DNA from: the human T2T-CHM13v2.0 reference genome, Homo sapiens
DNA length: 64,000 nucleotides
Assembly: GCF_009914755.1 (NCBI RefSeq)
Contig: NC_060937.1
Strand: one strand, 5' to 3'
The notes below the pieces were generated by a model. It did no database searches. It was given only the letters and a program-made list of their open reading frames with translations, and was not told the DNA's origin. This document shows positions 5,665-50,661 of the stretch, piece after piece. The number at the start of each line of letters is the position of its first letter. Position 1 is the first letter of the stretch. The translations under genes and the position numbers were made by a program.

Positions 5665-6098
<434 letters not shown>

Positions 6099-18320: not shown

Positions 18321-18891
18321 TGTGTCTGGAATTGGTGGGTTCTTGGTCTCGCTGACTTCAAGAATGAAGCCGCAGACCCTCATGGTGAGTGTCACAACTC
18401 TTAAACATGGTGTGTCCACAGTTTGTTCCTTCTGATGTTTGGACGTGTCCAGAGTTTCTTCTTTCTGGTGGGTTTGTGGTCTCACTGACTTCAGGAGTGA
18501 AGCTGCAGACCTTCGCAATGAGTGTTACATCTCATAAAGGCGGTGTGGACCCAAAGAGTAAGCAGCAGCAAGATTTACTGCAAAGAGAAAGAACAAAGCT
18601 TCTACAGCATGGAAGCAGCCCAAGTGGGTGGCCGCTGAGGGCACAGGTGGCCTGCTTTTATTTTCTTATTTGGCCCCACCCATATCCTGCTGATTGGTCC
18701 ATTTTACAGAGAGCTAATTGGTCCATTTTACAGAGTGCTGATTGGTCCGTTTTACAGAGTGCTGATTGGTGCATTTACAAACCTTTAGCTAGACACAGAG
18801 TGCTGATTGGTGCGTTTACAATCCTTTAGCTAGACAGAAAAGTTCTCCAAGTCCCCACCTAACCCAGAAGCCCAGCAGGCTTCACCTCTCA
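18321..18891 (-). mobile_element. Short LTR12 (LTR12F-like, HERV9) solo LTR
   Basis: Reverse complement begins TGAGAGGTGAAGCC and ends CCAGACACA; tandem gctgattgg (CCAAT) repeats; TSD agtg/agag. Confidence 0.9.
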
Positions 18892-24047: not shown

Positions 24048-24752
24048 AAACCAAACGGAGATATGGAACAAAAATGGGAATGGGAGGTGGGTGCTTCACA
24101 AAAAAAAAGAATATGATAAAACAGAATCAATATTAAGAAATTAATGGATGGCCGAGTTTCAATAGAAATTTTGAATGAATTTAGGGGATTCCAGAGACAA
24201 AAAGTCTTTTGCCAGACTTCCCAGTTCAGTTATAGAGAAATAATTTTATTTTGGTATGCATTATTATATGTGTGTGAAAATTAAAAACAAACAAAAAAAT
24301 TTCATCCCAAAAGAAACTTCTTTGACATGTTTCAGAATGGCAATTCAGAGAGCCTGCAGACAAGAATAGTCCTGAAAAGCTGCCTTTTGTCAGAGGCTTG
24401 CATCTGTAGAGAAAATCTGCATTGGTGAAACAAACAGCCAGGCTTTCCCTGAGGTCCCCTCCCTTTTTGTTTAGATCTAGGAAAGATTAACTTAAAATCT
24501 GACCCCTTTGAAAGACTGACAGAGAAGCTTTATCACAGGTTACCATGTATGTCTTCTGAGACCTGCTATCTGTGAGGTTTTATCTGTATAACAAGACTGT
24601 CTTTGCTCCATGCCTTTCTCTCTTCCACTCATAACCTATCTTGCCATGCTGCAAGCCCCCTATTCTTTTTGTAACCTCAAGATGGTATAAAAGCATCAAT
24701 TATCTAGCCTTTTCTTTGGGTTATCATATTTTGTATGACTCCCATATAATGT

Positions 24753-26192
24753 TGAGAGGTGACAGCATGCTGGCAGTCCTCAGAGCCCTCGCTTGCTCTC
24801 GGCACCTCCCCTGCCTGGGCTCCCACTTTGGTGGCATTTAAGGAGCCCTTCAGTCCCCCACTGCACTGTGGGAGCCCCTTTCTGGGCTGGCCAAGGCCGG
24901 AGCCCACTCCCTCAGCTGGCAGGGAGGTGTGGAGGGAGAGACAGGAGCGGGAACCGGGGCTGCGTGCGGCGCTTGCGGGCCAGCTGGAGTTCCGGGTGGG
25001 CGTGGGCTTGTGGGCCCCGCACTCGGAGCAGCCAGCCAGCCCTGCTGGCCCCGGGCAATGGGGGACTTAGCACCCGGGCCAGTGGCTGCAGAGGGTGTAC
25101 TGGGTCCCCCAGCAGTGCTGGCCCACCGGCGCTGCGCTCGATTTCTCGCCGGGCCTTGGCTGCCTTCCCACGGGGCAGGGCTCAGGACCTGCAGCCCGCC
25201 ATGCCTGAGCCTCCCACCCCCTCCGTGGGCTCCTGTGCAGCCCGAGCCTCCCTGACGAGCGCCAGCCCCTGCTCCATGGCGCCCAGTCCCATCGACCACC
25301 CAAGGGCTGAGAAATGCGAGCGCACGGCGCAGGACTGGCAGGCAGCTCCACCTGCAGCCCCGGTGCGGGATCCACTAGGTGAAGCCAGCTGGGCTCCTGA
25401 GTCTGGTGGGGACGTGGAGAGTCTTTATATCTAGCTCAGGGATTGTAAATACACCAATCAGCACCCTGTGTTTAGCTCAAGGTTTGTGCCAATCGACACT
25501 CTGTATCTAGCTGCTCTGGTGAGGACGTGGAGAACCTTTATGTCTAGCTCAAGGATTGTAAATACACCAATCGGCACTCTGTATCTAGCTCAAGGTTTGT
25601 AAACACACCAATCAGCACCCTGTGTTTAGCTCAAGGTTTGTGAGTGCACCAATTGACACTCTGTATCTAGCTGCTCTGGTGGGGCCTTGGAGAACCTGTG
25701 TGTGGAAACTCTGTATCTAACTAATCTGATGGGGAAGTGGAGAACCTTTGTATCTAGCTCAGGGATTGTAAATGCACCAATCAGCGCCCTGAAAAAACAG
25801 GCCACTCGGCTCTACCAATCAGCAGGATGTGGGTGGGGCCAGATAAGAGAATAAAAGCAGGCTGCACGAGCCAGCATTGGCAACCTGCTCGGATCCCCTT
25901 CCACAGTGTGGAAGGTTTGTTCTTTTGCTCTTTGCAATAAATCTTGCTACTGCTCACTGTTTGGGTCCATGCTGCTTTTATGAGCTGTAACACTCACTGC
26001 GAAGGTCTGCAGCTTCACTCCTCAGCCAGCGAGACCACGAACCCACCAGAAGGAAGAAACTCCAAACACATCTGAACATCAGAAGGGACAGACTCCAGAT
26101 GCGCCGCCTTAAGAGCTGTAACACTCACCGCGAGGCTCCGCGGCTTCATTCTTGAAGTCAGTGAGACCAAGAACCCACCAATTCCGGACACA
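24753..26192 (+). mobile_element. LTR12C (HERV9) solo LTR nested in the proviral 5' LTR
   Basis: TGAGAGGTGACAGC...ATTCCGGACACA, 1440 bp, perfect TSD ATGT, CpG-rich U3, tandem CCAAT repeats. Confidence 0.95.
25440..25860 (+). promoter_or_regulatory. LTR12C enhancer/promoter: CCAAT repeats, GC box, GATA, AATAAAA TATA-like box
   Basis: Multiple caccaatc; ccaat 25815, gggtggggcc 25831, agataa 25841, aataaaa 25850. Activity is inferred from the family only. Confidence 0.65.
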
Positions 26193-26311
26193 ATGTGGGC
26201 ATGTTAATAAATTTTGTGTGTCTCTTCTCCTATTAATCTGCCTTTTGTCAGTTCATTTTCAGTGAACCTTCAGAGAATGATGGGCAGGTTTTCCCTTGGC
26301 CCCCACAGTTT

Positions 26312-26329
26312 TGGCACTGTGAGCAGGAT
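26312..26329 (+). other. Retroviral primer-binding site, tRNA-Ser(CGA) type
   Basis: TGGCACTGTGAGCAGGAT, 4 nt after the LTR end; 17/18 to the complement of the tRNA-Ser(CGA) 3' end as recalled (TGGCGCTGTGAGCAGGAT); the mismatch is a CpG transition. Confidence 0.8.
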
Positions 26330-27490
26330 ACCAAAACCACTCTGTTCTTCTGGAAGCCACAGCCCAGGGAACCTAGGATCTGAGAAGTTCACAAAAGGGT
26401 AAGAAATTCTTACTAGTCAGACTCCCAGTCTTTCTCTATAGAATCCAGTGGAGCAAATGATAAAAATCACTCTACTGTTTCCCTTTCAAACTTGAGACTG
26501 ATGGGAGTAAAGCATTTTATAGAGAGTAGTCTTAGGTGTACAAATTCTGGTGTATATTTTGTATGAATATTTACATTGTCTGATCCTTTTCCTCCCAGAA
26601 ATAGTCGTTATTTTCTGCCTTGTCTCTGTGTTACTGTGTTTTGTCATAAAGAGGGTTACCATAGACCCTGAAATAGAAATTGGGTAAGATTCCTTTCTCG
26701 TTTTATTTTATGTTGTTGAGAACTTGGCTTGTGACAAAATGGGAACATTCTCTCTTGGTCTCAGCCTTCTGTGGGGCATGATTTGGGTCACGTCCAGTGG
26801 CCAGTCTGAAAAGAGTAGGAACCCAAGACATGTAAGATATTGAACAGTACACTCTTTATCAAATCTGCCAAACTCTCTAGGGAGTTTGCCTTCATGAGGA
26901 GTCCTATCCATAAGGGGCTTTTGTGATCTCAATCCTTGTTGCCTGGTTAGTCTTGGGGAAGTCCAATCCCAGGAGAGCCTACCCAGTGCCACAGATTAAC
27001 AAGTCAGTGACTGGTGCCCCCCATCACAGATTTGTGGGATACTGGAGGCAGCATACACGCAAACGCCATCTTTAACCTTCTATAGCAACAAAAGTATTTT
27101 GCTATTCTAGCCTATTTCCAGGAGTGAATTTTTCTGGGGATCATGGGAGGATTCATCCTCTGCACCCATTTTAAAGACATTACTTACATCTATGGTAATC
27201 CAAACCTGAAAAGTTATCTCTGGAAGTTTTCATGACAAAGACCTATTGCTTTGAGTCACTTATAGAATAAATAAATTGGCTATATTTAAAAGAAAACTTT
27301 TTAGAGAGCTTTTATCTTAAACAGCTATCTTTTTGTACCTATGAAAAGATATAAAATGAATTTATAGACTTACAACCTTCTTTGGCAAGAATAAAAGAAA
27401 AAAGCAGAAATCAGATTTAAAACAAAAGTAAATTTTTTTTTGCATACACAAACTTCCTACTTTGGATCTTTTGCAGAATCTGCAAAAAGA

Positions 27491-27559
27491 CCTATAGTCT
27501 AGTGGCTTGGAATTTATGTCTGTACTACTGTGGCCTGGGTTAAATTCCTGACCAGGGTA
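27491..27559 (+). pseudogene. Decayed tRNA-Glu-like sequence in the ERV leader
   Basis: gtctagtggcttgga...gtggcctgggttaaattcctgaccaggg resembles tRNA-Glu GGTCTAGTGGTTAGGA...GCGGCCCGGGTTCGATTCCCGGTCAGGG. Confidence 0.6.
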
Positions 27560-28357
27560 AAAGTCCCTTGGAAACATTAATAAAAAAATAGTTTGATATT
27601 TGCATATCTGTACCCATTTATTTTGTAATCCTTTGTACCCCCATAGATAGCTTTTGACTTCCACTTGTCCTGACTATTTTTAAATTTCCTGTGTGTATGG
27701 AACACAGGTTGTCAGGTCTTTGCAGACATTCAACTGAGAAACTGAAACCCTAGAGAACATGCTGGACAGAAATGTAGGATGTGCTCCATTTGTGGCTGGT
27801 GAAATTTTCTTTCTTTGAACTGTTGTTTGGAGTTGTCTGAATCTTGGGAAGGTTGAAGCTTTTACTCCCTCTTTGGAGACCTTGGGATAGCCAAGAAGGG
27901 CTTTTTGGTTTTGTTCTCATGTGTACTTATTTCTTTTTGTTTGGACTTATGTGTTTAGGTATACCTTTGACTTAAAACTTTGGTTTGTATTTTGTGTGGA
28001 ATAACAACTTGTTTTCCATTGTTTTGTTTCCTATCCTTGATTGGAAAGACACACTTCCTGCCACTGCTGCGAACTGACTGGTGAGTGGATGAGGCGAACA
28101 TCTTCCCAGGTCATGAGGGGAAAGGCTGCTGGTAAGACACCATTCCCTAGGTTCCGGTGAAAGGCTGACTGCTCATGGGACAGAGCTTGCTGTGTGTATA
28201 TTTAAAATATTTTTAAGTGAGTTGTACGGTCAAAAGTTGGCTTAACTAAAAGCTGATATTTAGGTCATAATTTTTTAAGGGCCTTTCTGCTTTTTCTCTC
28301 TTGTATCCTGTTTCACCCCTGAAAAAATTTTCAGCTGACTAAAATATATATATATAT

Positions 28358-28720
28358 ATTAAGTTTGGTGGATAATTGTGTAGGACCTAAGGGAAAACTT
28401 ACCCTTTTTTCTCTAAAGATTCACTAAAAATCAATGGACAAGAGGCAGATCAATAGGAGTAAAGTCATACAAAATTGACTAACATGCATGTGTGTTCATG
28501 GCAGTCATACAAAATATGAAAACTCAAAGGGCCAAGTAACAGACACCTTTATATCATGTTGAGGTAACAAAAAGAATCGGGGCTTGGAGCTTGGTAAAAC
28601 AGGTTATGGGAGGGAGGGAAAGAGAAGGGCATGGGGCAAGAATAGCCTTGTTGTATAGATAAAACCTCACAGGTAGCAGCTTTCAGAAAGAATAGATGTT
28701 ATCTCTGATAAAGCTTCTCT
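28358..28720 (-). repeat. Inverted repeat arm 1: near-perfect inverted copy of 29608-29971
   Basis: Aligned by hand: 363 matches, one 1-bp indel, no substitutions; flanked by (TA)n and (CT)n(TA)n. Confidence 0.97.
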
Positions 28721-29607
28721 CTCTCTCTATATATATAAAACATATGTATATAACATATATATATCTAATTATATGATCTGTCCCTCTGTTTGCTTCCTTT
28801 CTTGTTGGCATGATTTTTGCTGACAAAAGGTAAAATTTCATTAGCCTTTTGGAGAGGTTTAAGATCTCTCCAAATTGTCTCCTCTGAGACTTGTTCTCCC
28901 ATTTACTTGTACTCCTCCTTTTCTTGCCACCTTTGATACCACATGAAAAGCTCTAAAGGGGACTTCTGGCAGCCCAGAATCCCCCTGAGGAACACAGAAA
29001 AAAAGGTGCCATACACATCTTTTTGGGGTGGTTCTGTCTTCCCCGTGAAGCCCCAAGAGTCACGGGCAGTGATGTCTCAGGACTAACACTCTACTTCCTT
29101 TTGCATTGAGTTCCCTGACCTCTTTGGCTTTTGGGAATACTGGAGATTGTTTTGTGTTATGAGAGACCACTTGATCTTCGGGTGTATGATGGCTGGTAAG
29201 GCACTAGCAAAAGCTAAAGTTTGGGAGGTGCCTCACAGAGGTTGCAGTGAATGGATATCTTTGCCTGTCTCTTATCTGTAAACATGTAAACATGTAACCC
29301 AAGTCTCTACACAGCTGCCAATCCTACCTTAATAAGCTTTCTAAAAGTAAAGTTTAAAATGGGGGACTAAAGAAAACCAAAAATATTTATCCCAAAATAT
29401 ACTTCTTTGACATCTTTCAAGGTGGCTATTCAGAGGAGCTGCAGACAAGAATAGCCTTGAAAAGCTGCCTTTTGTGGAAGAAACTTGCATCTGTAGAGTA
29501 AATCTGCATTGGTGAAATGAACAGCCACGCTTTCCCTGACGCCGCCACATACTTTATCCAGATCTAGAAAAGACTAACTGAAAATCTGACACTTTTGAAT
29601 GTCTGGC

Positions 29608-29971
29608 AGAGAAGCTTTATCAGAGACTAACATCTATTCTTTCTGAAAGCTGCTACCTGTGAGGTTTTATCTATACAACAAGGCTATTCTTGCCCCATGC
29701 CCTTCTCTTTCCCTCCCTCCCATAACCTGTTTTACCAAGCTCCAAGCCCCGATTCTTTTTGTTACCTCAACATGATATAAAGGTGTCTGTTACTTGGCCC
29801 TTTGAGTTTTCATATTTTGTATGACTGCCATGAACACACATGCATGTTAGTCAATTTTGTATGACTTTACTCCTATTGATCTGCCTCTTGTCCATTGATT
29901 TTTAGTGAATCTTTAGAGAAAAAAGGGTAAGTTTTCCCTTAGGTCCTACACAATTATCCACCAAACTTAAT
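29608..29971 (+). repeat. Inverted repeat arm 2 (3' part of the 3' LTR plus 21 bp of flank)
   Basis: Reverse complement of 28358-28720. Confidence 0.97.
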
Positions 29972-30473
29972 TGCTTTAAAATGAGAAACTGAATACATAA
30001 GTGTATGTAACATATTTTGCAAGTTTAGCTGTGTCTGAGGCAGAAAATGGAGCAATACCTAGAAAGACGACAAAAGGACAATTCATTTATTTTCTTTTTT
30101 TCTCTTTCTCTTTCTCTTCCTCTCTCCCTTTCATTCTGTACTGGAGAGACTTAGCTTGTGTTGAAGTCTGAATGGAAGCCATTTATGGATATGCAAAGAG
30201 GAATGGATAATTGATGAAGCATGGTAACAAAGATTATTTTCATCTGAGTACAAAGATAAAGGTAAGACTGGGTGAAGATTCAGCCATGTTTGAGAATTGA
30301 GTGACAGGCAGTCACAGGCAAGAAGATTCTGGAACAATACAGAAGTAGAGGCAAAAACTATAACTACTCATATCTTTTGCCCCTGTAGACTATAACTATT
30401 ATAACTAATAAAGCCTTTGAGTTTCAAATTACCAAAGCACAGGCCTTTTTTCCTTATTAGGTAAAATTTAGAC

Positions 30474-30767
<294 letters not shown>

Positions 30768-31132
30768 TAGACTGTTTTTAGGGAAATACTGGTTTATTAC
30801 TTTATTATCCTGTGTATAGAAAGCCTGAGAAATTAGAAAATGCCCTCACTGAACAGGCAGAGGTGTAAACCATGAAGCAAGTCGCTAAATTTCCCTGAAT
30901 TTTATTGGAATTCCTCTGAATTTTATTAGAAAAATATGAAAGAGGATAGTCAGTAAAAGCCTGGAAAGAGGCTACTGGCAGACAATAAAACTTAAAGATA
31001 GATAGAGTAAATAAAGCCAGGCTAGGGGTTTTAGGTTTTTGAGGTAGTAGGGTGCAGCAGAGGGGGTAGAGTCAGAATATGGGATGTGATTGAAGATATT
31101 TGATCAGAGAAAGGTTGTGATAAAATGTTATG

Positions 31133-31137
<5 letters not shown>

Positions 31138-31170
<33 letters not shown>
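31138..31170. repeat. (TG)n microsatellite
   Basis: Seen directly. Confidence 0.98.
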
Positions 31171-31173
<3 letters not shown>

Positions 31174-32849
31174 TTTAATAGGACAAAGGCAGTGGTTCTT
31201 TAGCTGATAATGAATTATGTATGGATTATCTGGAGATGGATATAGGTAGGTAACTATTGCAAGAGTCTGAGCAAGAAATTATAATTGCCTAGACTTAGTG
31301 CAGATACCTAATCAAGTAATATTTACAAGGACCTTGATATTGATTACATGGTGCATATAAGATAAGTCAAGTATTTCTTTTACATTTCTTACAGTAAGAT
31401 AAAATAGGTAGTTAAAATATAGTCAGAACATAGAAGAGCAAATTGCAAATTGGACACATTTTTGAAAAAAACAAATCTATGCTTACAATATTATCTTAAG
31501 ATTATTTTAAAATGTCGTGTAGTCTATTAATATACTTAAAAGATATGCATGTATTTTGCAGGTTTTGCTTGTTTTTTTAAGTATTATCAATACACGCAAA
31601 ATCCTATATTTAACTTCATGCAAATATGAGCAGAGAGTTTCTCAACAGGCACCACATAAGGGCTCAGATACACTAAACTAACCTTAAATTTTTCTCTTTT
31701 GTGCATAACTTGGTCCTTTTTGTTATTTCAGATTTTATTTGACTTTATCTTTTATATATTTTATCAAACAATATGTCTGTAATATCATTTCCACAGAGCC
31801 ATTTTATTTTGAAAGTGGCAAAAAGAGGGGCACGTCCATTCTAGTGCTAATATTTTCTTATTAATTACTCTCTTCAAATAAGTTTCACGGGGGTTGATTC
31901 ACTTGAATTTAAAACAGAAAAGAAATACTTCCCAGAAAACATACCACGTCCCTCCCTCCAGCTTGAGTGCTGCTTAGAAAATTGCTAAAGTACTTGGATA
32001 GAATGGAATACACGGTATTATTTCTCAGAAATTTAAAAATAAATTTGACAGTTGAAGTTTTTGTGCCATTATGTTGACCTTTATAATCTAAACATTGGGA
32101 AATAGAACGTGTGATTATGTTTTAATTAGTCTATTGACAATTTACATTACAGAAGAGGACAAAAATGCTTTTAAGATGAGATAATGCAAAGGAGAGGGCT
32201 GACTATTTTGTTTTTAAAATCTTGTACTCTTTGTAACAGCCTAAAGAAATGCATATTTTACTCTCCTAGGTTATCAGGAGAACCACAATTAGAGAATTTT
32301 ACTTTAATGTGTTCACAAATGATTCATAATACCCAGTATAATGAGGAGTTCAAAATAACATTACGCAATCATAACTATACCTCTTATTACATTGACAATC
32401 TTTATTTTACATTATAAAGAAACTCCAGACTTCCATAGTTTTTTTGAATGGCTCTTAGACCTAATGGGGAAAACATGTCCCATTTCTACATGTGCTATAT
32501 ACCTACCAGAGCACCTCAAGTGTATCTTACCAATAAAATTGAAAAGTCAGGTGAAATGGAGATGTTTTTGCTTATTTTGTTTTGTTTTTAATGCTTTGAA
32601 GATGTTTAGTCTACAATTCTATGTTTTCTTTATGAGCATTTAAGTTGAATGGAAATGTAAAACCAAATTAGAGGCTGGTCATTTCATAGGGGTTATATGT
32701 AGGCTGCTACTAACACAAAACCTAGGGAGTTTGCTTTTAATTCCCAGGTGCGTAACAGAAGCAGGAGCTAAAGATATGTCATATATATATATATATACAA
32801 AGACAAATTTCAAAGGAGTAAAAGGCATAATAATAATATTAATCATAAT

Positions 32850-49027: not shown

Positions 49028-49904
49028 ACTCCAGGCTTGTATCCTTTATTATTGGTGTGTAAAAAAGATTATTAGGAGATAATTGGTGAAGACCAATCCT
49101 CTTACTGAACTAAGCAAAATTATTCAGAAATTGATCATTTAGCTTTGATTCTACCTTCCATGAATATTGCACTTTTCTCTCTAAGATGTGACAGTTACCT
49201 TGTTAACATATATTCTTTTTCTGTTCTAACAACAGAATTTAGCATTTTTCTCAGTAACTTATTTCTGGATTTAACTTATTTCCATTCTTAAAATTTCTTG
49301 GTTTTATTTTGCATTTGTCTTGGTTTTGTGCCCTGCTTTTCATCTTTGGAAAGCCGCTTTAGATTCAAGCTTATTGTAGATTCCCCCAAACTATCCTATA
49401 GGATCCCCTTGCTGTCTCCTACTGTTCTTAAGCACAATAGTTATGCAGAAATGTTTCATAAAAATTATTTCAGAACATTTCAACACTCTTGACACATGCT
49501 TTAGAGTTACCTATGAAAATTGTAGGGTCACATTCACCTTTTTCAGCTTTCATAAGAATAGTCGAGAGTATGTCTTTGAGTCTGCTATGCAACTCTGTCC
49601 TTCTCAATTCTAAATAGACACAACCACTTTAATTGAAAGGTTTCCATCACTCTTACAACCTCAGCCAATTTTCCTTCCCTGTCTGAATGAAATCCAGCAA
49701 TTGCGCATTTGCTTCCTCATGCAAGATGAAATTGTCAGCAAGGTAAATAGCAAATTTATTAGGTGCCATCCTTTTAGCAGAATTAGATTTCAAACAGATG
49801 CTCATACAGTTCAAGTTCTCTATTATTTGCATACAGACGGTTTTTTGTTAAGTTGGAAATCTTTTACAAATTTTTAACCGTAATCTTCATTTTGTTTGTG
49901 TGTG

Positions 49905-50661
49905 TATGTATATATAATATATAATATATTATATATATTATATATTATATATTATAAAATATTATATATTATACAATACATATTATTAATTATACAATAT
50001 ATAATATTATTAATGTTATTAATTAATATAATAATAATATTATTAATTATTAATATTATATAATATAATATATAATATATTATATATTATAAATAATATA
50101 TAATATATTATATATTATAAATAATATATAATATATTATATATTATAAATAATATATAATATATTATATATTATAAATAATATATAATATATTACATATT
50201 ATAAATAATATATAATATATTACATATTATAAATAATATATAATATATTACATATTGTATATAATATATAATATATATTATATATTATATACAATATGTA
50301 ATATATATTATAAATAATATATATAATATATATAATATGTAATATATATTATAAATAATATATATAATATATAATATGTAATATATATTATAAATAATAT
50401 ATATAATATATAATATGTAATATATATTATAAATAATACATATAATATATAATATGTAATATATTATAAATAATATATATAATATATAATATGTAATATA
50501 TGTTATATAATATATAATATGTAATATATGTTATATAATATATAATATGTAATATATGTTATATAATATATAATATGTAATATATATTATATATAATATA
50601 TATTATATTATATATAATATATAAAAAATATAATATATATAATATAATATGTATATTATAT
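49905..50661. repeat. AT-rich compound minisatellite (28-, 39- and 28-bp periods)
   Basis: Nearly pure A/T; periods measured from recurring ataaat and atgtaa anchors. Confidence 0.95.

What the first reader, a model, noticed from the sequence alone, without database searches (positions are those of the whole stretch)
28358..29971. Recent 363-bp near-perfect inverted duplication inside an old provirus; candidate polymorphic inversion
Seen: 28358-28720 is the reverse complement of 29608-29971 with one 1-bp indel and no substitutions (even a CpG is kept), around an 887-bp spacer. The provirus's own two LTRs are clearly diverged, so the copy is far younger or has been homogenised by gene conversion. 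It starts mid-LTR and runs 21 bp past the LTR end into host flank, so it is not a retroviral integration. It sits between (TA)n and (CT)n(TA)n tracts. Inference: template switching (FoSTeS/MMBIR or Pol theta) at a TA repeat created a substrate for recurrent NAHR inversion of the spacer. If transcribed through, it would form a ~360-bp perfect dsRNA stem.
Basis: partly seen in the sequence, partly recalled or inferred. Interest (0 to 1): 0.8.

Follow-up and report, generated by a model that had tools for sequence, protein, structure and literature searches.

The report
Young inverted copy inside old retroelement
A 363-base piece of an ancient retroelement's end plus a little neighbouring DNA was copied backwards into a TA-repeat 0.9 kb away, a real but ordinary kind of repair scar that could allow the DNA between the copies to flip.

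Summary
Window 28358-28720 is the reverse complement of 29608-29971: 344 nt are perfect, the rest differs by one 1-bp indel, and the spacer is 887 bp. All other genomic copies of this LTR family scored are 68-80% identical.

Arm 2 is the native copy. It runs from about nt 248 of the 3' LTR to the LTR end, plus about 20 bp of unique flank.

Arm 1 is the derived copy. In 7 of 11 related elements, the sequences on either side of arm 1 lie 8-58 bp apart, against 421-467 bp here. Arm 1 sits inside a locus-specific TA-rich tract and carries the 1-bp deletion. The spacer has the ancestral orientation.

Best reading: a post-integration, locally templated inverted insertion (template switch or fold-back repair) at a TA microsatellite.

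Its age is open. It is either under about 4-10 My old or older and kept identical by gene conversion. Whether arm 1 or the spacer orientation varies among people could not be tested, because no other human or ape sequence was available.

The repeat fills most of an intron of a predicted lncRNA and would fold into a 363-bp perfect RNA stem.

This is a new member of a known kind, of moderate interest.

The parts
24282..24745 (+). First part of the 5' LTR of the old LTR element, cut off by a later insertion.
   Evidence: About 80% identical to 29368-29831 (374 of 470 columns). Aligns to the LTRs of relatives L029, L030 and L031.
24749..26192 (+). Later GC-rich insertion with internal tandem repeats, which splits the 5' LTR. 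It contains exon 1 (26118-26156) of the predicted lncRNA LOC105370220. I label it LTR12-like from recall only.
   Evidence: The 5' LTR homology stops at 24745 and resumes at 26193. Internal repeats and an inverted 82% relative at 18321-18698 were found. The exon position comes from the hub's annotation. The family label is recalled and was not tested.
26193..26308 (+). Remainder of the 5' LTR.
   Evidence: Window 26193-26471 aligns to L029 1083-1365. L029's LTR, which matches window 29364-29950, ends at 1198.
26309..28343 (+). Internal region of the element, left of the insertion site. It carries exons 2 and 3 of the lncRNA.
   Evidence: Family hits in the own genome and collinear hits in L029-L031. 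No retroviral Pfam domain in 64 stop-free fragments.
28344..28359 (.). (AT)8 microsatellite at the outer junction of arm 1. Its last 2 bases are shared with the copied sequence.
   Evidence: TRF and junction print-out.
28358..28720 (-). Arm 1, the derived inverted copy. It consists of about 20 bp of host flank and the last 340 nt or so of the 3' LTR, in reverse complement, and has a 1-bp deletion between 28701 and 28702.
   Evidence: Relatives are contiguous across this site. The deletion is assigned to arm 1 because the 5' LTR aligns to arm 2 without a gap at that point.
28721..28768 (.). (CT)4 followed by an interrupted TA-rich array at the inner junction of arm 1.
   Evidence: Relatives have a short non-TA sequence here.
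28721..29607 (+). Spacer. It is the 3' end of the internal region plus the first 247 nt or so of the 3' LTR, in ancestral orientation.
   Evidence: Collinear on the + strand with the left flank and with the LTR in relatives.
29608..29971 (+). Arm 2, the source copy in its native context. The 3' LTR occupies 29608 to about 29951, and unique flank runs from about 29952 to 29971.
   Evidence: The LTR alignment runs unbroken across 29607/29608. Family homology ends at about 29950.
28132..30146 (+). Intron 3 of the predicted lncRNA LOC105370220. It holds the whole inverted repeat.
   Evidence: Exon coordinates come from the hub's annotation. The GT at 28132 and the AG at 30145-30146 can be read. 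Predicted RNA fold.

Best explanation
This is a real, post-integration, locally templated inverted insertion, also called a dispersed inverted duplication.

Inferred mechanism:
1. A break or a stalled fork arose in a locus-specific TA-rich microsatellite inside an old LTR element.
2. A free 3' end then copied 363-364 nt from the opposite strand, 0.9-1.6 kb away. The copied stretch was the last 340 nt or so of the element's own 3' LTR plus about 20 bp of unique flank.
3. The end rejoined at the TA tract.

One concrete version of this is as follows. The resected minus-strand tail on the right side of the break folded back on itself. It primed at the AGAG just inside the present arm 2, slipping there to leave the (CT)4 filler. 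It copied out to 29971 and was joined to the other broken end through the AT repeat.

Shown:
- Arm 1 is the derived copy and arm 2 the source.
- The copy includes non-LTR flank.
- The site is TA-rich.
- The spacer has the ancestral orientation.
- The single difference is a deletion in arm 1.

Inferred:
- The repair or replication pathway.
- The age of the event.
- That the element has no function.

Consequences that follow from the structure:
- It is a substrate for arm-to-arm gene conversion and for flipping of the 887-bp spacer.
- When the host intron is transcribed, it forms a perfect 363-bp RNA stem.
For: The arms are identical apart from one 1-bp indel. The next best genomic copies are 68-80% identical (38 non-self hits scored out of 423 candidates), so the source is this locus.

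Arm 2 is continuous with the upstream LTR in the family-collinear way. The last 19-21 bp of arm 2 lie beyond the family homology.

Of 11 relatives compared, 8 carry both the left flank and the spacer. In 7 of those 8 the two lie 8-58 bp apart. In the eighth they lie 395 bp apart because of an Alu-like insert, recognised by eye. The window has 421-467 bp there.

The insertion site is bracketed by (AT)8 and a TA-rich array that the relatives lack.

The junctions show at most 2 bp (AT) of shared sequence on the left, and CTCT followed by (CT)4 on the right. There is no poly(A).

No inverted similarity is left outside the arms. For the outer flanks, 170 of 200 shuffles reach the observed score; for the inner flanks, 18 of 200 do.

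The 1-bp deletion is in arm 1, 19 nt from its inner junction. This fits the error-prone synthesis near switch points described for replicative repair, which I recall and did not look up.

Published work shows that template switching creates perfect inverted repeats in one step and is enriched at AT-rich sites (passages of PMC7954356 and of PMC10710096).
Against: No orthologous or allelic sequence could be examined. The absence of arm 1 from the ancestral state therefore rests on paralogous family members, not on an outgroup.

Three of the 11 relatives gave only the spacer-side match.

The published short-range template-switch events concern short hairpins and microinversions (17-33 nt microinversions in PMC8755829). 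An event of 363 nt over a distance of 0.9-1.6 kb is well above that scale.

The microhomology at the junctions is minimal and is confounded by the simple repeats.

The TA repeats on both sides could also be read as a target-site duplication.
Confidence: 0.75

Rival explanations
1. The inverted duplication is old, predating the human-chimpanzee split or more. Its arms are kept identical by recurrent arm-to-arm gene conversion, as in sex-chromosome palindromes. The formation mechanism could be the same; only the age differs.
For: Closely spaced inverted repeats are known to be homogenised by gene conversion (abstracts of PMC8600007 and PMC8327919 in the listing). Zero substitutions in 363 bp gives only an upper bound on age if no conversion is assumed. 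The TA-rich tract on the inner side is interrupted rather than pure, which could reflect age.
Against: The 1-bp indel has not been homogenised. The arms are short, only 344 nt of perfect identity, so conversion should be far less efficient than in palindromes of kilobase to megabase size. The outer (AT)8 is still perfect. None of this is decisive.
Confidence: 0.2
2. A staggered-break inversion duplicated one breakpoint segment in inverted orientation at the two ends of the inverted spacer. The spacer later flipped back by recombination between the arms.
For: The final arrangement would be indistinguishable from the present one. The arms are a possible recombination substrate.
Against: This needs two events where one suffices. 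The spacer is in the ancestral orientation and is collinear with both flanks. The model does not explain the TA-repeat context or the (CT)4 filler.
Confidence: 0.03
3. Arm 1 is a retrocopy of a short antisense transcript that started in the flank and ran into the 3' LTR. L1 machinery inserted it at an AT-rich target.
For: TA-rich sites are good L1 endonuclease targets (recalled). TA repeats on both sides could be a target-site duplication.
Against: There is no poly(A) or A-rich tail at either end of arm 1 in either orientation. There is no clean target-site duplication outside the simple repeat.
Confidence: 0.03
4. Arm 1 is not a germline feature of human populations. It is either an assembly error or a change private to the sequenced cell line.
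For: Only one haplotype could be examined. None of the inversion or structural-variant tables that I could read mentions the site.
Against: The whole structure is 1.6 kb of otherwise unique sequence, far shorter than the long reads used for such assemblies (established knowledge, not tested here). The junctions look like a biological repair product at a microsatellite.
Confidence: 0.04

Closest known systems
Template-switch mutations in primate genomes (Loytynoja and Goldman 2017, recalled; Walker et al. 2021, PMC7954356; Monttinen et al. 2023, PMC10710096)
   Same: A nearby sequence is copied in reverse complement in one step. This gives a perfect inverted repeat and a hairpin-forming transcript. 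Events are enriched at AT-rich DNA (passages).
   Different: The passages I read deal with short hairpins and microinversions (17-33 nt microinversions in PMC8755829). Here 363 nt were copied from 0.9-1.6 kb away and inserted, rather than replacing local sequence.
Microhomology-mediated break-induced replication / FoSTeS (Hastings et al. 2009, PMC2621351; seen in the listing only)
   Same: A 3' end switches to a nearby template with little or no homology. Inverted segments and errors close to the junctions result.
   Different: These models are usually invoked for rearrangements of kilobases to megabases at disease loci. Here there was a single short excursion, with return to the original place and no loss of flanking sequence detected.
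Snap-back, synthesis-dependent microhomology end joining (PMC5728401, PMC2943611; abstracts seen)
   Same: A resected 3' tail folds back on its own strand, primes synthesis, and the new DNA is used to bridge the break. Inverted templated insertions result.
   Different: By my recollection, the templated insertions reported there are far shorter than the 363 nt copied here.
Polymorphic human inversions mediated by inverted repeats (Aguado et al. 2014, PMC3961182; Moreira-Pinhal et al. 2026, PMC13629690)
   Same: Highly identical inverted repeats flank a short unique segment. The published candidate set includes repeats of 140 bp to 190 kb and inversions of 197 bp to 4.4 Mb, so this locus falls within that range.
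   Different: No second orientation has been observed here. The chr13 inversions listed in the tables I could read lie elsewhere.
Sex-chromosome palindromes kept identical by gene conversion (PMC8600007, PMC8327919; abstracts seen)
   Same: Near-identical inverted arms surround a spacer.
   Different: By my recollection, the arms of those palindromes are orders of magnitude longer than the 363 bp here and carry genes. This one lies in an autosomal gene desert.

Membership tests
Locally templated inverted insertion (template switch / MMBIR / fold-back repair) | The inserted segment is the reverse complement of a nearby sequence that is itself kept intact in its native context. | tested here: met
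   (99.7% identity, inverted, 887 bp apart). Arm 2 is continuous with the rest of the LTR.
Locally templated inverted insertion (template switch / MMBIR / fold-back repair) | The segment is absent from the ancestral state of the recipient site. | tested here: inconclusive
   The feature is met indirectly. In 7 of 11 paralogous relatives the site is contiguous, with 8-58 bp between the flanking matches. No orthologue or other allele was available for a direct test.
Locally templated inverted insertion (template switch / MMBIR / fold-back repair) | Short microhomology or filler at the junctions, and no retrotransposition hallmarks. | tested here: inconclusive
   There are 2 bp (AT) of shared sequence at the outer junction and CTCT plus (CT)4 at the inner junction, with no poly(A). 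The simple repeats make the microhomology ambiguous.
Inverted-repeat-mediated (NAHR) polymorphic inversion | High-identity inverted repeats flank the segment, of a length seen in validated cases. | tested here: met
   344 nt of perfect identity. The published range of repeat lengths is 140 bp to 190 kb.
Inverted-repeat-mediated (NAHR) polymorphic inversion | Both orientations of the segment are observed among individuals. | not testable with these tools
   Only one human haplotype is held, and it has the ancestral orientation. The readable inversion tables show nothing at about GRCh38 58.7 Mb, but they cover few genomes.
Retroviral integration or solo LTR | A complete LTR with its own ends, bounded by a target-site duplication and containing no host flank. 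| tested here: not met
   Arm 1 starts about 248 nt into the LTR and includes 19-21 bp beyond the LTR end.
Endogenous retrovirus provirus (the host element) | Two LTRs in direct orientation around an internal region with gag/pol/env remnants. | tested here: inconclusive
   The LTR-internal-LTR layout is shared with relatives. No retroviral Pfam domain was found in any of 64 window fragments. None of 104 fragments from three relatives matched any Pfam family.
Palindrome maintained by gene conversion | Arm-to-arm identity is higher than the age of the duplication allows. | not testable with these tools
   This needs the age from orthologues, and none are available.
L1-mediated retrocopy | A poly(A) tail and a target-site duplication. 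| tested here: not met
   There is no A-rich tail at either end. The TA repeats on both sides are ambiguous.
Known RNA family (miRNA or other, Rfam) | A match at or above the family's gathering score. | tested here: not met
   There was one sub-threshold match outside the repeat: 16.1 bits against a gathering score of 50, at 27091-27174.

The most novel reading that the evidence does not exclude
The insertion is a young, human-lineage and possibly still segregating event that created two things at once. The first is a toggling 887-bp micro-inversion. The second is a perfect 363-bp intronic RNA hairpin in an LTR-promoted lncRNA. This hairpin is much longer and more perfect than the usual inverted-Alu duplexes. 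It would therefore be a strong natural substrate for ADAR editing, for Dicer, or for innate dsRNA sensors wherever the lncRNA is expressed.
Probability: 0.1. Interest if true: 0.55.

Novelty: new member of a known kind. Interest (0 to 1): 0.35.

Why it matters
The locus is a clean, sequence-resolved example of a templated inverted insertion of intermediate size. Such events lie between the well-studied short template-switch mutations and the large rearrangements of genomic disorders. The polarity of the event (which copy is the source) and the nature of its target site (a TA microsatellite) can both be read directly from paralogous copies of the host element.

If arm 1 or the spacer orientation varies among people, the site would be one of the smallest inverted-repeat-mediated inversion candidates. 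It would also be a natural test of how short a perfect repeat can drive flipping and gene conversion. If the host lncRNA is expressed, the intron would give an unusually long perfect double-stranded RNA.

On present evidence none of this is shown. The feature is most likely a neutral repair scar in a gene desert.

Tried and rejected

Population and outgroup state. No human or ape sequence other than the window's own genome is held, so presence or absence of arm 1 and the spacer orientation could not be tested. Looking for the locus in print also led nowhere:
- Porubsky 2022, Ebert 2021 and Audano 2019 are not held.
- Table S1 of Moreira-Pinhal 2026 was not opened, because the tool text says no supplements are held for papers added after Aug 2026. 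The main text has no chr13 entry.
- Giner-Delgado 2019: 0 occurrences of 'chr13' in the 12 of 18 supplementary files searched.
- Aguado 2014 lists chr13 inversions only at hg18 63.19 and 79.29 Mb.
- Chaisson 2019, Supplementary Data 9, lists chr13 inversions at 18.2, 37.3, 52.2, 63.7 and 85.7 Mb (the first 30 of 210 'chr13' occurrences were seen).
- The Logsdon 2025 spreadsheet has no variant id starting chr13-579 or chr13-587. Its chr13-58 ids shown lie at 58.0 Mb.
- The tables of PMC12229492 gave no chr13 row for the six number prefixes 5870-5875 (first two places per term shown), and the sheets shown list inversions together with the genes they overlap.

The approximate GRCh38 position of 58.7 Mb was derived from a SNP placed in the lncRNA at hg19 59,315,119, plus recalled offsets between assemblies.

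Class of the host element. Reading the internal region through its stop codons was not accepted. Stop-free fragments gave no retroviral domain, so the class stays undetermined.

Rfam gave nothing.

Rejected readings:
- Chance.
- A retroviral integration.
- A copy from another family member. The best of these is 80% identical over 140 bp, and long matches reach at most 78%.
- An old decayed palindrome with a converted core. No residual inverted similarity remains outside the arms.

Full report
**1. The observation**

A repeat search of 26000-32500 returns a single inverted pair: 28358-28701 against 29628-29971, 344 nt and 100% complementary. Gapped BLAST of the region against the window extends it to 28358-28720 against 29971-29608. 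That alignment has 364 columns, one gap and no substitution. The spacer is therefore 28721-29607, 887 bp.

The gap is one base missing from arm 1 between 28701 and 28702. Each arm holds one CpG. Among the 25 longest of 75 inverted pairs in the whole 64-kb window, this is the only one above 90% identity. The others are old interspersed repeats and an AT-only minisatellite.

**2. What the arms are made of**

I searched the window's own genome with arm 1. The two arms come back at 100%. The 38 other scored matches, out of 423 first-look candidates, are 68-80% identical, and long matches reach at most 78%. The arm therefore belongs to an old dispersed family, and arm 1 can only have been copied from this locus.

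Within the window, 24282-24745 aligns to 29368-29831 at 374 of 470 columns, about 80%.

LTR-bounded relatives fetched from the genome fix the layout:
- The full LTR corresponds to window 29364-29950, about 590 bp.
- The 5' LTR of the window's element is 24282-24745 plus 26193-26308. It is split by a later GC-rich insertion at 24749-26192.
- The internal region runs from about 26309 to about 29360.

Arm 2 thus begins about 248 nt into the 3' LTR and runs to its end. Family homology to arm 1 starts at query position 18 or later in 34 of the 38 non-self hits, and never before position 7. The outer 19-21 bp of each arm are therefore unique flank. An LTR fragment that begins mid-LTR and carries host flank cannot be an integration product.

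I could not confirm the retroviral class of the element. None of 64 stop-free fragments of the window's internal region hit a retroviral Pfam family; the only hits were two sub-threshold chance matches. None of 104 fragments from three relatives matched any family at E 0.001 or better. 'Provirus' is therefore used here in the structural sense only.

**3. Which arm is the copy**

The LTR alignment crosses the spacer-arm 2 boundary (29607/29608) without a break, both against the window's own 5' LTR and against relatives. Arm 2 is therefore in its native context.

For arm 1, I compared window 28100-29400 with 11 related elements:
- Eight carry both the sequence left of arm 1 (about 28200-28345) and the sequence right of it (from about 28766).
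- In seven of these the two matches lie 8-58 bp apart.
- In the eighth they lie 395 bp apart. The extra DNA there is an unrelated insert that I recognise as an Alu (the label is recalled).
- Three relatives gave only the right-hand match.

In the window the same interval measures 421-467 bp. The relatives show a short, non-repetitive sequence at the site. The window instead has (AT)8, then arm 1, then (CT)4, then an interrupted TA-rich array.

Arm 1 is thus an insertion into a TA-rich tract that is peculiar to this locus. All three blocks (left flank, spacer, LTR) are collinear on the + strand with the relatives, so the spacer in this haplotype has the ancestral orientation.

The window's 5' LTR aligns to arm 2 without a gap at the position of the indel. 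The 1-bp difference is therefore a deletion in arm 1, 19 nt from its inner junction.

**4. Junctions and boundaries**

At the outer junction, the last two bases of (AT)8 are also the first two of the copied sequence. At the inner junction the copy ends in CTCT and is followed by (CT)4, which the source lacks. There is no A-rich tail at either end.

Outside the arms no inverted similarity remains. For 300 bp of outer flank, 170 of 200 shuffles reach the observed local score. For 300 bp of inner flank, 18 of 200 do. The repeat has sharp edges.

**5. How it most likely arose (inferred)**

Several features fit a templated repair or replication error better than any mobile-element process:
- a recipient site inside a TA microsatellite;
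- a source 0.9-1.6 kb away on the opposite strand;
- minimal microhomology;
- a short slippage-like filler;
- a single-base error near a junction.

One concrete path runs as follows. A break occurs in the TA tract and the ends are resected. The minus-strand 3' tail of the right-hand end folds back on itself and primes at the AGAG just inside arm 2, with slippage there. It copies 363-364 nt out to 29971, and the new end is captured by the AT repeat on the other side.

A fork-based switch (FoSTeS/MMBIR) would give the same product, and the sequence cannot tell the two apart.

Published work supports the general class:
- Template switching creates perfect inverted repeats in a single event and is enriched at AT-rich DNA (passages of PMC7954356; PMC10710096).
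- Snap-back synthesis at breaks is documented (abstracts of PMC5728401 and PMC2943611).
- Break-repair models have been proposed for microinversions flanked by inverted repeats (passages of PMC8755829).

Those events are mostly much shorter, so this one sits at an intermediate scale.

**6. Age**

I assume roughly 0.5 to 1 x 10^-9 substitutions per site per year (recalled rates) and two arms of 363 bp. Zero substitutions then gives a 95% upper bound of about 4-10 million years, provided no gene conversion has acted.

Gene conversion between closely spaced inverted arms is well known for large palindromes (abstracts) and cannot be excluded here, so the event could be older. The surviving 1-bp indel and the short arms argue mildly against efficient homogenisation.

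By a rough prior argument (inference only), a derived insertion with no substitutions is at least as likely to be still segregating as to be an old fixed difference. I could not test this.

**7. Inversion hypothesis**

The arms fall within the range of repeats that flank validated or candidate human inversions: repeats of 140 bp to 190 kb and inversions of 197 bp to 4.4 Mb (PMC13629690, sections read). The proposal is therefore reasonable.

No evidence for a second orientation was found, and the search was weak:
- The key catalogues are not held.
- The candidate table of PMC13629690 was not opened.
- The tables I could read list no chr13 inversion near GRCh38 58.7 Mb. Some of them contain only selected variants or list inversions together with the genes they overlap.

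Supplements that I could not see may well hold the answer.

**8. Transcription context**

By the hub's annotation, the whole repeat lies in intron 3 (28132-30146) of the predicted lncRNA LOC105370220. The GT and AG at the intron borders can be read.

An RNA of 28358-29971 is predicted to fold at -924.3 kcal/mol, against -389.5 +/- 12.9 for 10 shuffles. All 363 positions of arm 1 pair with arm 2. No Rfam family matches. Whether the lncRNA is expressed, and whether the stem is edited or diced, is unknown.

**9. Verdict**

The mechanism is a plausible inference. Recency and inversion polymorphism remain open.

The feature belongs to a known mutational class and shows no sign of function. It is a tidy, testable example rather than a surprise.

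Noticed in passing
window 24749-26192: A GC-rich element of about 1.44 kb with internal tandem repeats splits the 5' LTR of the older element. Exon 1 of the predicted lncRNA (26118-26156) starts about 75 bp before the element's end, with a GT donor at 26157. The lncRNA therefore looks promoted by this inserted element. From recall it resembles an LTR12-type solo LTR. An inverted relative, 82% identical, lies at 18321-18887.
   Followed up: partly
window 49900-50660: An almost pure A/T minisatellite of about 750 bp built of TATA-type units. It is strongly self-complementary, giving many imperfect inverted pairs of 70-88%. It is a second AT-rich tract, prone to forming structure, in the same gene desert.
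   Followed up: no
LOC105370220 (window 26118 onward): A bronchiolitis GWAS reported a suggestive signal at rs9591920 (hg19 chr13:59,315,119) inside this lncRNA locus (passages of PMC5282585). There is no known link to the inverted repeat. I used it only to place the window on older assemblies.
   Followed up: no
L019 (G000:C1:93241206-93244698), about 1993-2389: A relative of the host element carries an Alu-like insert followed by a GT/TA-rich microsatellite at the position homologous to the arm 1 insertion site. This spot of the element has therefore been hit independently at least twice.
   Followed up: no
window 26197-29258 and loci L029-L031: No retroviral protein domain is detectable in this LTR-bounded family. 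None of 64 fragments from the window hit a retroviral family, and none of 104 fragments from three relatives matched any Pfam family. The family is either too decayed or non-autonomous, and its class was not determined.
   Followed up: partly
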